Below, piece by piece: positions 13,615-15,854 of a DNA stretch of 45,162 bases. The stretch is from a virus (lineage: Duplodnaviria; Heunggongvirae; Uroviricota; Caudoviricetes). The stretch's first letter is position 1; each line of letters opens with the position of its first letter. The notes beneath the pieces are model-generated. The model was not told the origin of the DNA and made no database searches. It saw only the letters and a program-made list of their open reading frames with translations. Location: IMG/VR virus record IMGVR_UViG_2684623059_000002; one strand, written 5' to 3'. The translations under genes were made by a program, and so were the position numbers.

Positions 13615-13822
13615 GTTAGAGTCTTTCAGTCTGCGATGATGGGAAATCCCGGAGTGACTGAAAGACGTTTAAGTTATGAATGATCGCCTTTTTTTGCAAA
13701 ATTGCTGTGCAGAAATACTAACCTTCGGGCAGGCGATCATTCATAAGCACTCTGCTTTTATTCCGATTAACTGTGGGTGGTTTGTTGGATAGAGTGCTTT
13801 CCTTTCTGTATATATCGTTTCG

Positions 13823-13842
13823 CCCGCTTTTGCGGTTTTTTC
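13823..13842 (+). terminator. Weak candidate intrinsic terminator (tR'-like) between the tRNA cluster and the late genes
   Basis: Short hairpin CCGC-TTTT-GCGG followed by a T6 tract. Confidence 0.3.
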
Positions 13843-13906
13843 TTTTCAAATCCCTTTCATTTCTCAGTGTAAAACTACGCCATCCGTTATTTGCGGAGGT
13901 GAGGCT

Positions 13907-13987
13907 ATGAAATCCATGGACAAAATTTCAACGGGCATTGCCTACGGCACATCCGCAGGCAGTGCTGGCTACTGGTTTTTACAGTGA
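13907..13987 (+). pseudogene. Truncated N-terminal fragment of a phage-21-type pinholin (first 26 codons with dual-start motif), remnant upstream of nanS-p
   Basis: [26 protein letters not shown] parallels the N-terminus of the intact holin at 16076 ([26 protein letters not shown]); strong GGAGGTGAGG RBS. Confidence 0.7.
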
Positions 13988-14003
13988 CCATAGGATAAAT
14001 TCG

Positions 14004-15854
14004 ATGTCGATTAAACGTTATGATTTGGTCAGGGCAGCCTCGCCGTCAGATCTGGCGGAAAAACTGACACACAAACTGAAAGAGGGCTGGCAGCCATACG
14101 GCGGACCGGTTGCCATTACGCCGTACACACTTATGCAGGCGGTGGCAATTGAAGGCGAGCCACAGGTAGGTCCTTTATCTGAGCCGGACTGGTATTACGT
14201 GGTTGTGCTTGCCGGACAGTCCAACGGCATGGCTTACGGTGAAGGGCTTCCGTTACCGGATTCTTACGATGCTCCGGATCCGCGCATTAAACAACTGGCA
14301 CGCCGCAGCACGGTAACCCCGGGTGGCGAGAGTTGTGCGTATAACGACATCATCCCGGCTGACCACTGTCTGCATGATGTGCAGGATATGAGTACGCTGA
14401 ATCATCCGAAGGCAGACCTGAGCAAAGGGCAGTACGGCTGTGTCGGACAGGGCTTACATATTGCCAAAAAACTGCTTCCGTATATCCCGAATAACGCGGG
14501 GATCCTGCTGGTACCATGCTGTCGTGGTGGTTCGGCATTCACCCAGGGCGCGGAGGGGGCATTCAGCGAGTCCACGGGGGCCAGTCAGGATTCGGCACGC
14601 TGGGGTGCGGGTAAGCCGTTATATCAGGATCTGATTTCCCGCACAAAAGCGGCATTGCAGAAAAATCCCAAAAACGTTCTGCTGGCCGTCTGCTGGATGC
14701 AGGGTGAGTTTGACATGAGCGCCGCCACCCATGCACAGCAACCTGCGCTGTTTACAGCCATGCTGAAGCAGTTTCGTGCCGACCTCTCCGTGTTTAACGC
14801 GCAGTGCCATGGTGGCAGTGCTGCAACTGTGCCGTGGATTTGTGGTGACACGACGTATTACTGGAAAAATACATACGCTACCCAGTACGACACCGTGTAC
14901 GGCGGGTATAAAAACAGGGAGAGTGAGGGCGTTTATTTTGTGCCCTTTATGACAGACGGTAACGGTGTCAATACCGCCACTAACGCGCCGGCAGAAGATC
15001 CGGATATTCCGGCATCAGGATATTACGGTGCGGCATCGAGAACGAATGGAAACCAGGTATCATCAAACCGCCCGACACATTTCAGCTCATGGGCACGCAG
15101 GGGCATTATTTCGGATCGTATGGCAACCGCTATTCTGGACGCAGCCGGTCGCACCTCAGCCTTCATCAGTGGTAAGGCACCGGAAATCAAACCCTCGCCC
15201 GGCGGCGACACGCCATCGGATCCGTCTGTAGATACGTCCGTTCGCACGATCTCCCTGCTGCCGGCAGCCGGAGAGGCTGCTGCGCAGGGCTGGAGCATTA
15301 AGGATGGCGGAATTCAGTTGTCAGATGGTGTATTTAAGATCACCAAGCAGAGCAATAAAACCTGGTCCCTGACGCATCCGGTGGATGACGCAATTACCCT
15401 GCTGACACAGGGCGGCAGGCTGACCTGTAAGTTCCGCCTGTCTGGAGCTCTGACCAATAATCAGTTCGGGCTGGGGATTTATCTGTATACGGACGCTCCC
15501 GTTCCTGATGGTGTGGTGATGACGGGTACCGGTAATCCGTTCCTGATGTCGTACTTCACTCAGACCACTGACGGCAGACTGAATCTGATGCATCACAGGA
15601 AAGCCGGAAACACGAAGCTGGGGGAATTCGGGGGCTACAGTAACGACTGGCAGACGCTGGAGCTGGTGTTCACCGCCGGCAGTGCCACGGTTACTCCGAA
15701 ACTGAATGGAGTGGAAGGCCCGTCATTCCAGGTTATAAAAGACAGTCTGACTCTGGGACTGAATGCACTGACGCTGACGGATGTTACAAAAAATGCAGCG
15801 TATGGCGTTGAGATAGAAAGTCTGATGCTGGAGATAAATGCAGCGGAATCATAA
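14004..15854 (+). CDS. nanS: Prophage sialate O-acetylesterase NanS-p (N-terminal DUF1737 plus SGNH/SASA esterase domain)
   Basis: MSIKRYDLVRAASPSDLAEKL N-terminus and GQSN esterase motif; position between tRNAs and holin as for nanS-p/yjhS homologues in EHEC prophages. Confidence 0.85.
   Translation: MSIKRYDLVRAASPSDLAEKLTHKLKEGWQPYGGPVAITPYTLMQAVAIEGEPQVGPLSEPDWYYVVVLAGQSNGMAYGEGLPLPDSYDAPDPRIKQLARRSTVTPGGESCAYNDIIPADHCLHDVQDMSTLNHPKADLSKGQYGCVGQGLHIAKKLLPYIPNNAGILLVPCCRGGSAFTQGAEGAFSESTGASQDSARWGAGKPLYQDLISRTKAALQKNPKNVLLAVCWMQGEFDMSAATHAQQPALFTAMLKQFRADLSVFNAQCHGGSAATVPWICGDTTYYWKNTYATQYDTVYGGYKNRESEGVYFVPFMTDGNGVNTATNAPAEDPDIPASGYYGAASRTNGNQVSSNRPTHFSSWARRGIISDRMATAILDAAGRTSAFISGKAPEIKPSPGGDTPSDPSVDTSVRTISLLPAAGEAAAQGWSIKDGGIQLSDGVFKITKQSNKTWSLTHPVDDAITLLTQGGRLTCKFRLSGALTNNQFGLGIYLYTDAPVPDGVVMTGTGNPFLMSYFTQTTDGRLNLMHHRKAGNTKLGEFGGYSNDWQTLELVFTAGSATVTPKLNGVEGPSFQVIKDSLTLGLNALTLTDVTKNAAYGVEIESLMLEINAAES

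What the first reader, a model, noticed from the sequence alone, without database searches (positions are those of the whole stretch)
13615..14004. Empty stx-equivalent site with a duplicated holin 5' fragment upstream of nanS-p
In Stx phages the toxin genes lie between the tRNA genes and nanS-p. Here that interval is about 390 bp with no toxin ORF; it holds a 26-codon pinholin N-terminal fragment with its RBS (13907-13987) whose stop lies 16 nt before the nanS-p start. This is a recombination scar consistent with cargo exchange at this site and may provide expression signals for nanS-p.
Basis: partly seen in the sequence, partly recalled or inferred. Interest (0 to 1): 0.6.

Follow-up and report, generated by a model that had tools for sequence, protein, structure and literature searches.

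The report
Holin gene stub at prophage recombination joint
The short holin fragment in front of nanS-p is real, but it is the leftover start of a different holin gene that was cut when the nanS-p cassette was joined in, and the DNA before it is the normal leader of that holin (carrying a conserved folded RNA), not an emptied Shiga-toxin site.

Summary
A 26-codon P21-type pinholin N-terminus with its ribosome-binding site lies at 13907-13987, and its stop is 16 nt before the nanS-p ATG at 14004. There is no toxin ORF and no stx remnant.

The fragment is not a copy of this phage's own holin (48/78 nt, 15/26 aa). It is 77/78 nt identical to the start of an intact S21/EssD-type holin in stx-free phages. 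In those phages everything from Q through the tRNAs to 13986 is collinear at 96-99%. The 281-nt leader occurs full-length in 526 of 5426 complete E. coli genomes.

Homology stops at 13986; nanS-p cassette homology (phage 434) starts at 13993. The identical joint is rare: 1 of 5426 E. coli genomes and 3 IMG/VR contigs. It occurs in three mosaics with different left or right flanks. In this window the two parental tracts overlap only inside the stub (13892-13986). So the joint arose once and has since moved by homologous recombination through the stub.

This is an ordinary kind of lambdoid mosaic scar, already flagged by PGAP as a partial holin.

By-product: 13615-13809 is a conserved three-hairpin RNA with covariation support and no Rfam match.

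The parts
12399..13094 (+). Late antiterminator Q gene
   Evidence: Pfam PF06323 Phage_antiter_Q, E 5.9e-92. Collinear with Q of phage vB_EcoM-606R7.
13158..13187 (.). GC-rich hairpin with T/A runs just after Q. Inferred tR'-type terminator of the short pR' transcript. A promoter-like site lies at 13078-13106.
   Evidence: Terminator and promoter scans. Weak sub-threshold isrK/isrJ-like Rfam hits at 13110-13183. The functional assignment is inferred.
13305..13614 (+). Array of four tRNA genes (Met-CAT, Lys-TTT, Thr-TGT, Gly-TCC) with a promoter-like site at 13267-13295
   Evidence: ARAGORN, Rfam tRNA hits, promoter scan. Positions 13287-13380 are 100% identical to the first tRNA of a Stx2a phage.
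13615..13809 (+). Conserved three-domain structured RNA directly after the last tRNA. Hairpins lie at about 13621-13666, 13675-13745 and 13746-13798.
   Evidence: MFE z-score -4.85. Homologues in the HK639 late leader, E. coli NCTC13148 and at least 120 IMG/VR contigs. Over 17 representatives: 60 pairs, 98.3% paired, 10 pairs with compensatory double changes, slid controls 39-48% paired. Covariance model scores 210 bits here. No Rfam family at E<=1.
13822..13847 (+). Decayed intrinsic terminator after the structured RNA: CCGC-TTTT-GCGG followed by a T-run
   Evidence: Read from the sequence. Relatives have GCCCGC-TTTT-GCGGGC-TTTTCTTTT. HK639 has an annotated terminator at the same place. The window copy is too weak for the scan.
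13895..13987 (+). Holin stub: Shine-Dalgarno GGAGG (13895-13899), dual starts Met1/Met4, 26 codons of an S21/EssD-type pinholin (almost all of TMD1), and a TGA created at the joint
   Evidence: 77/78 nt and 26/26 aa identical to the intact holin of phage 606R7. PGAP annotates the same sequence in E. coli 14EC007 as 'phage holin, incomplete'.
13986..13993 (.). Novel joint. Holin homology ends at 13986. nanS-p cassette homology begins at 13993.
   Evidence: blastn end-points and alignment A2. Comparison of nanS-p upstream regions.
13992..15854 (+). nanS-p (prophage sialate O-acetylesterase homologue) with its own SD AGGA (13992-13995) and ATG at 14004
   Evidence: Pfam DUF1737 + SASA + DUF6645. 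94.6% nt identity to the phage 434 SASA esterase. About 81% to yjhS/nanS-p of Stx phages.
15854..15935 (-). Esr41-like small RNA candidate convergent with nanS-p. This is the right edge of the nanS-p module (about 15870).
   Evidence: Rfam RF02676, 47.5 bits, E 4.9e-7, below gathering score. Minus-strand promoter-like site at 15987-15958. Homology to L002, L007 and L008 ends at 15870.
16076..16291 (+). Intact resident pinholin (933W/H-19B type, 71 aa), the functional holin of this prophage
   Evidence: Pfam PF04971, E 6.5e-33, profile positions 1-63 of 64. 94% aa identity to the holins of phage 434 and the Stx phages.

Best explanation
The 390-bp interval is the ordinary late-operon leader of an S21/EssD-type pinholin gene. 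It ends in the first 26 codons of that gene, which were cut and fused to a nanS-p cassette.

History (inferred from comparisons):
1. A phage with the order Q - tRNAs - leader - S(21 type) - lysis genes took up a segment beginning at the nanS-p ribosome-binding site. The segment continued through a 933W-type holin. The join was illegitimate, after nucleotide 80 of S, and created a TGA.
2. The resulting unit (holin stub + nanS-p) then spread among lambdoid prophages by homologous recombination. The roughly 95-bp stub served as the left homology arm, because thousands of prophages carry that holin start. Crossovers downstream of nanS-p provided the right side.
3. This prophage, in Escherichia albertii EC06-170, is one such recombinant. 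Its left arm resembles phage 606R7 up to 13986. Its right arm resembles a prophage of E. coli 14EC007 from 13892 onward.

Function:
- The stub cannot act as a holin, because it lacks the pore-forming TMD2 and the charged tail.
- It is probably still translated from the Q-antiterminated late transcript, since SD and start codons are intact. Ribosomes would stop 16 nt before the nanS-p ATG. This may modestly help nanS-p translation but is not required, because nanS-p has its own SD. This step is inferred, not shown.
- The rest of the interval is a conserved structured RNA that trails the tRNA array, followed by a decayed terminator.
For: - Collinearity with stx-free phages. Window 13000-13986 equals phage vB_EcoM-606R7 at 98% (10686-13986 at 95.7%). 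There the fragment is the 5' end of an intact 71-aa holin.
- The 281-nt leader is full-length in 526 of 5426 complete E. coli genomes, upstream of intact class II holins.
- Sharp joint. Holin homology ends at 13986; nanS-p homology to phage 434 begins at 13993.
- Same joint in other backgrounds. E. coli 14EC007 and UViG L006 carry it with a DNA-methyltransferase and a different leader upstream. That leader is itself the native leader of intact holins in 693 genomes.
- L007 and L008 have the same left flank as the window but a different nanS-S intergenic region and S allele.
- In the window, the 606R7-like and 14EC007-like tracts overlap only at 13892-13986.
- No stx remnant was found. Stx phages and phage 434 have no stub.
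- The stub matches only profile positions 1-22 of 64 of PF04971. S21 TMD1 ends with the YWFLQW patch and TMD2 is the pore-former (bioRxiv 10.1101/2021.04.20.440580).
Against: - The order of events is inferred from only five joint-bearing sequences. The original donor and recipient are not identified.
- The few nucleotides at the joint (13987-13992) match neither parent cleanly, so the mechanism of the first join is unresolved. Microhomology is possible.
- All five stubs keep an intact ORF, and the only two variable sites are synonymous. That is also what a selected small ORF would show, although the sample is far too small to tell.
- No expression data were examined.
Confidence: 0.85

Rival explanations
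1. Emptied toxin slot. An stx operon or other cargo once lay between the tRNAs and nanS-p and was lost, leaving a short scar.
For: The position is topologically equivalent to the stx site: tRNAs - stx - nanS-p - S in Stx1 and Stx2 phages (PMC10462455). Other prophages carry alternative cargo there. The first tRNA is 100% identical to that of a Stx2a phage.
Against: - No stx similarity anywhere in the window.
- The whole interval up to 13986 is the native leader of intact holins in stx-free phages and in 526 E. coli genomes.
- Stx phages lack both the structured leader RNA and the stub.
- The tRNAs after the first one differ from the Stx-phage set.
Confidence: 0.03
2. Local duplication. The phage's own holin 5' end was duplicated when nanS-p was inserted into it (a target-site or slippage-type duplication).
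For: Two holin starts flank nanS-p in direct orientation. Both have an SD and the Met-x-x-Met dual-start pattern.
Against: - The two copies are only 48/78 nt and 15/26 aa identical, and their upstream 30 nt are unrelated.
- The stub is 77/78 nt identical to a different allele.
- The downstream holin belongs with the nanS-p-bearing 933W/434 lineage.
Confidence: 0.03
3. Selected small ORF. The stub is kept because it does something. Either its translation is coupled to and boosts nanS-p translation, or the 26-aa TMD1 (SAR-like) peptide enters the membrane and modulates pinholin timing.
For: - Intact SD, both start codons and ORF in all five copies, with only synonymous differences.
- The stop lies 16 nt before the nanS-p ATG with no terminator between them.
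- In S21, TMD1 controls the timing of hole formation.
Against: - Two variable sites cannot show selection, and they may simply be polymorphisms imported from intact holins by recombination.
- nanS-p has its own SD and exists without a stub in phage 434 and Stx phages.
- The stub's TMD1 is only 58% identical to that of the resident holin.
- The joint is very rare, 1 of 5426 E. coli genomes.
Confidence: 0.08
4. Recurrent hotspot. The same holin position is independently broken in different phages, for example at a site-specific cleavage or recombination site, rather than the joint arising once.
For: The joint is found behind two unrelated upstream modules.
Against: - All five copies share the identical junction sequence over at least 25 nt, including the non-parental bases ACCATA.
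- Each upstream module is the native leader of intact holins, as expected from crossovers within the stub.
Confidence: 0.02

Closest known systems
S21 pinholin of phage 21 / EssD-type class II holins (Pfam PF04971)
   Same: The stub is residues 1-26 of this protein: the dual-start MKSM motif and TMD1 up to ...YWFLQ. It is 26/26 aa identical to the intact holin of phage vB_EcoM-606R7, with the same SD and leader.
   Different: It is truncated before the last TMD1 residue. It lacks the loop, TMD2 and the charged C-terminus (profile positions 23-64), so it cannot form pinholes. It is a pseudogene fragment. RefSeq already labels the identical sequence in E. coli 14EC007 as an incomplete holin.
Q - tRNA - stx - nanS-p - S late region of Stx-converting phages (933W, H-19B, Sakai-type; PMC10462455)
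   Same: Same gene order of antiterminator, tRNA genes, nanS-p, pinholin and lysis genes. The first tRNA is identical. The downstream holin is of the 933W/H-19B type.
   Different: - No stx genes or remnants.
- A different Q.
- Different tRNAs after the first one.
- nanS-p is only about 81% identical.
- Stx phages have neither the holin stub nor the structured leader RNA.
Mosaic joints and gene remnants of lambdoid phages (modular evolution; morons such as the phage 434 'B' non-homology region)
   Same: A sharp novel joint at a gene edge, flanked by modules that re-assort by homologous recombination. nanS-p behaves as a cassette with fixed edges, 13993 to about 15870, shared with phage 434.
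   Different: Here the left edge of the cassette has captured about 95 bp of a very common holin gene. That gives it a ready-made homology arm. The crossover inside it can be located in this window.
tRNA 3' external-transcribed-spacer RNAs (e.g. 3'ETS-leuZ of E. coli; recalled from memory, not tested)
   Same: The structured RNA at 13615-13809 starts right after the CCA end of the last tRNA. In relatives it is closed by an intrinsic terminator.
   Different: No sequence or Rfam relationship. It is about 190 nt with three long hairpins. Release, stability and any target are unknown.

Membership tests
P21 holin S family (PF04971, class II / pinholin) | N-terminal dual-start motif and TMD1 (SAR-like helix) | tested here: met
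   MKSMDK... with Met1 and Met4. Pfam match to profile positions 1-22, 34.3 bits against a cut-off of 26. 26/26 aa identical to an intact holin.
P21 holin S family (PF04971, class II / pinholin) | TMD2 (pore-forming helix) and charged C-terminal tail | tested here: not met
   The ORF stops after codon 26. Profile positions 23-64 are absent. TMD2 is the pore former in S21. The stub is therefore not a functional member.
Stx-converting phage toxin locus | stxA/stxB genes or recognisable remnants between the tRNA genes and nanS-p | tested here: not met
   tblastn of Stx1A/B and Stx2A/B gave a best E of 0.19 over the whole window and nothing in the interval. blastn of Stx-phage intervals matched only the first tRNA.
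Stx-converting phage toxin locus | Synteny Q - tRNAs - (cargo) - nanS-p - pinholin S | tested here: met
   compared.
NanS-p prophage sialate O-acetylesterases | DUF1737 N-domain + SASA catalytic domain + C-terminal DUF6645 domain | tested here: met
   Pfam hits at E 8.2e-15, 1.2e-12 and 9.1e-19. The domain layout matches the description in PMC10462455.
NanS-p prophage sialate O-acetylesterases | Esterase activity on 9-O-acetylated sialic acid | not testable with these tools
   Needs an enzyme assay.
Any Rfam 15 RNA family (for 13615-13906) | Covariance-model match at or near the gathering score | tested here: not met
   No hit at E<=1 in 13615-13906. Only the tRNAs and a sub-threshold Esr41-like hit elsewhere.
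tRNA 3'ETS-derived RNAs | Lies directly 3' of the last tRNA of an operon and ahead of its terminator | tested here: met
   The element starts 1-7 nt after the CCA of tRNA-Gly in 124 of 125 loci. A terminator follows in relatives.
tRNA 3'ETS-derived RNAs | Released as a stable RNA that acts on other RNAs | not testable with these tools
   Needs Northern blotting or RNA-seq and target analysis.

The most novel reading that the evidence does not exclude
The supposedly empty interval carries an undescribed, widely conserved structured RNA of about 190 nt (13615-13809). It forms three hairpin domains with long invariant loop sequences. It is made as the 3' trailer of a phage tRNA operon in front of the lysis genes.

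It could be a processed regulatory RNA (a 3'ETS-type sponge) or a cis element. As a cis element it might protect or gate the lysis mRNA after the tRNAs are cut out.

Separately, the holin stub may act as a portable homology arm that lets nanS-p hop into any phage with an EssD-type holin.
Probability: 0.3. Interest if true: 0.55.

Novelty: new member of a known kind. Interest (0 to 1): 0.22.

Why it matters
For the finding itself, the stakes are small. It corrects an over-reading: this is not a vacated toxin site. It also gives a clean, datable example of how a virulence-associated accessory gene (nanS-p) moves between lambdoid prophages. The cassette carries a piece of a very common lysis gene as a recombination handle. 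This is useful for annotators (a partial holin next to nanS-p is a pseudogene, not a second holin) and for people tracing cargo exchange around the stx locus.

The by-product could matter more. A conserved folded RNA sits between phage tRNA genes and the lysis cassette. It is present in about a tenth of complete E. coli genomes, is unannotated, and is absent from Rfam. It is directly testable by transcript mapping.

Tried and rejected
- Stx remnants. I ran tblastn with Stx1A/B and Stx2A/B, and word-7 blastn of the tRNA-to-nanS intervals of Stx1 and Stx2 phages. Only the first tRNA matched.
- Holin remnants in front of nanS-p in Stx1 and Stx2 phages and phage 434: none.
- Exact 25-nt joint in other collections. 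There were 0 hits in the GTDB species-representative genomes and 0 in JGI metagenome contigs. It was found only in 3 IMG/VR contigs and 1 complete E. coli genome.
- Literature. Only one paper combines nanS-p and holin (PMC10462455), and it does not mention a holin fragment. No paper contains the conserved loop sequences of the RNA element. Searches on HK639 and on tRNA 3'ETS returned nothing bearing on this element.
- A conserved small ORF inside the leader. The 38-aa ORF at 13676-13792, annotated as hypothetical in phage 606R7, has no Pfam hit. By my reading of the alignments, its frame is not kept in the HK639-type homologues, so I rejected it as a gene.
- Stub-nanS-p fusion by read-through. 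The stub is in a different frame from nanS-p, so this was rejected.
- Microhomology at the joint. It could not be resolved from the nanS-p upstream regions available.
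Full report
**1. What is at the coordinates**

Four tRNA genes (Met-CAT, Lys-TTT, Thr-TGT, Gly-TCC) end at 13614. The next long gene starts at ATG 14004. It encodes a 616-aa protein with DUF1737, SASA and DUF6645 domains, i.e. a prophage NanS-p-type sialate O-acetylesterase.

Between them lies a 26-codon ORF at 13907-13987, [26 protein letters not shown]. It is preceded by GGAGG at 13895-13899. Its TGA (13985-13987) is 16 nt before the nanS-p ATG.

The ORF passes the Pfam gathering score for 'Bacteriophage P21 holin S' (PF04971: E 2.4e-8, 34.3 bits against a cut-off of 26). It covers only profile positions 1-22 of 64.

An intact 71-aa holin of the same family lies at 16076-16291.

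**2. The fragment is not a duplicate of the resident holin**

- Against the window's own holin start, the 78 coding nt match at 48/78 and the peptide at 15/26. The 30 nt upstream are unrelated.
- This is still far above background. It is the best position in the whole window after the fragment itself (48 against next best 37, mean 19.5, sd 3.9).
- Against the intact holin of phage vB_EcoM-606R7, the fragment is 77/78 nt and 26/26 aa identical, with an identical SD region.
- That holin ([35 protein letters not shown]...) agrees with the features described for S21: residues D2-K3-I4 of S21-68, the aromatic patch YWFLQW, and the loop LDQVSPSQ (bioRxiv 10.1101/2021.04.20.440580).
- The stub is therefore almost all of TMD1. 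It has none of TMD2, the pore-forming helix, so it cannot be a holin.

**3. The interval is a native holin leader, not an emptied slot**

- Megablast of 13615-14004 against phage genomes finds four stx-free phages (606R7, 689R5, PhiR47_1, phi467). They match positions 1-372 at 98.4-98.9% and then stop. In each, the match runs into an annotated intact holin S.
- The window is collinear with 606R7 from 10686 to 13986: DUF968 gene, RusA, Q, tRNAs, leader, holin start.
- The 281-nt leader alone (13615-13895) is present full-length in 526 of 5426 complete E. coli genomes, three of them at 100% identity. It is always unannotated.
- No similarity to Stx1 or Stx2 subunits exists in the interval or anywhere in the window.
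- The only DNA shared with the tRNA-to-nanS-p interval of a Stx2a phage is the first tRNA plus 18 nt upstream (94 nt, 100%).

**4. The joint**

Holin homology ends at 13986. Homology to the nanS-p cassette of phage 434 (94.6% over 13993-15870) begins at the cassette's ribosome-binding site.

The G-to-A change at 13987 turns the TGG (Trp27) codon into TGA. The six bases in between match neither parent cleanly, so the mechanism of the original join is unresolved.

Phage 434, E. coli A25, E. coli 2022H047 and the Stx1 and Stx2 phages carry nanS-p without any holin fragment in front of it. In those genomes the tRNA-to-nanS-p slot holds stx1, stx2, or TerB/TciA-TciB-type genes.

**5. One origin, then spread by recombination**

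The exact 25-nt joint is rare:
- 0 hits in GTDB species-representative genomes;
- 0 hits in JGI metagenome contigs;
- 3 IMG/VR contigs;
- 1 of 5426 complete E. coli genomes, strain 14EC007. There PGAP already annotates the stub as 'phage holin, incomplete; missing C-terminus'.

The five copies fall into three mosaics:
- (a) The window: 606R7-type left flank, then stub, nanS-p and the right flank called D1.
- (b) L007 and L008: the same left flank, but a different nanS-S spacer and S allele after 15870.
- (c) 14EC007 and L006: right flank D1, but upstream a DNA methyltransferase and another leader. Homology with the window starts at 13889-13896, at the SD.

That second leader is itself the native leader of intact holins in 693 genomes.

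In the window, the 606R7-like tract (10686-13986) and the 14EC007-like tract (13892 to about 40509) overlap only across the stub. The crossover that made this prophage therefore lies inside the stub. The simplest reading is a single illegitimate join, followed by homologous exchange in which the stub is the left homology arm.

All five stubs keep the ORF, and only two synonymous sites vary. That is too little variation to argue for or against selection.

**6. Likely workings**

Shown:
- The stub has an SD and start codons.
- No terminator-like site was detected between it and nanS-p.
- nanS-p has its own SD (AGGA, 13992-13995), equivalent to the annotated RBS in phage 434.

Inferred:
- Late transcripts start at a pR'-like promoter just after Q (13078-13106) and are made terminator-resistant by Q.
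- They read through the hairpin at 13158-13187, the tRNAs, the leader, the stub, nanS-p and the lysis genes.
- Ribosomes translating the stub stop 16 nt before the nanS-p start. They may help initiation there, but this is not needed in other phages.

**7. What else is in the interval**

RNA 13612-14010 folds much better than shuffled versions (z -4.85).

The first 195 nt (13615-13809) have homologues at about 75% identity in:
- the late leader of phage HK639, between Q/tR' and the holins;
- E. coli NCTC13148;
- at least 120 IMG/VR contigs.

Over 17 representatives, the consensus has three hairpin domains with 60 pairs:
- 98.3% of cells are paired;
- 10 pairs have compensatory double changes;
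- several G-U pairs are invariant, which fits the + strand;
- slid-partner controls drop to 39-48% paired.

Much of the variation separates just two clades, so the counts are not independent events.

The element follows a tRNA 3' end in 124 of 125 loci. HK639 keeps only the 3' half of tRNA-Gly. In relatives an intrinsic terminator follows the element; in the window that terminator is decayed.

A covariance model finds the element once in the window (210 bits). It finds nothing in the Stx1 or Stx2 phages, phage 434 or the 14EC007 prophage.

Rfam has no match at E<=1, and no searched paper contains its conserved loops. Its function is unknown. A tRNA-trailer (3'ETS-like) RNA, or a 5' protective or processing element for the lysis mRNA, are inferences only.

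**8. Source and setting**

The window's nanS-p protein is encoded exactly once on record, in AP014857.1. That locus is an exact substring of the window. AP014857.1 is Escherichia albertii EC06-170 (PMC7550682). This explains why no complete E. coli genome has the full arrangement.

The prophage also carries NleG, an NleL/SopA-type ligase and NleC after the tail fibre genes.

**9. Verdict**

- The fragment is real and correctly located.
- It is a recombination scar, but of the resident S21/EssD-type holin cut by the nanS-p cassette.
- It is not an stx excision site and not a duplication of the phage's own holin.
- The kind of feature is well known: a lambdoid mosaic joint with a gene remnant. 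The sequence is already labelled a partial holin in RefSeq.
- Interest for the finding is low.
- The conserved structured RNA in the same interval is the more novel item and deserves its own follow-up.

Noticed in passing
window 13615-13809 (+): Conserved three-hairpin structured RNA directly after the tRNA array. It has covariation support (60 pairs, 10 with double changes), is present in the HK639 late leader and in at least 120 IMG/VR contigs, has no Rfam match, and is unannotated in 526 E. coli genomes.
   Followed up: yes
window 13382-13458 (+), compared with loci L017-L136: The second tRNA of the array (Lys-TTT here, weak Rfam score of 38.9 bits) changes anticodon among homologous arrays: Lys-TTT, Arg-TCT, Phe-AAA, Leu-TAA, Leu-CAG, one ochre-suppressor TTA, and odd loops. 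The acceptor and T arms stay alike. It is either anticodon-switching or a decaying tRNA.
   Followed up: partly
window 15854-15935 (-): Esr41-like small RNA candidate convergent with nanS-p (Rfam RF02676, 47.5 bits, E 4.9e-7, below gathering score). A minus-strand promoter-like site lies at 15987-15958, and a hairpin plus T-run lies at its 3' end. It sits at the right edge of the nanS-p cassette.
   Followed up: no
window 40650-44908 (+): Type III effector cluster after the tail fibre genes: NleG (40650-41240), an NleL/SopA-type HECT-like E3 ligase with pentapeptide repeats (41290-43662; NCBIfam NF011904, 603 bits), and NleC/Peptidase_M85 (43916-44908).
   Followed up: partly
window 13287-13380 (+): The first tRNA (Met-CAT by ARAGORN; PGAP labels the tRNA at the corresponding first position in E. 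coli A25, 2022H047 and FDAARGOS_1267 as tRNA-Ile) plus 18 nt upstream is 100% identical to that of a Stx2a phage. Identity ends at the tRNA's 3' end, which is a second mosaic joint inside the tRNA array.
   Followed up: partly
L015 (E. coli NCTC13148) 618-1340 and L016 (HK639) 2849-3200: In NCTC13148 an HNH endonuclease gene lies between tRNA-Asn and the structured RNA. In HK639 a 5'-truncated tRNA-Gly precedes the RNA. The RNA element is retained even when its tRNA is destroyed.
   Followed up: no
window 17993-18304 (+): A DUF4406 protein (related to nucleoside 2-deoxyribosyltransferases) is encoded just after the Rz/lysis genes.
   Followed up: no
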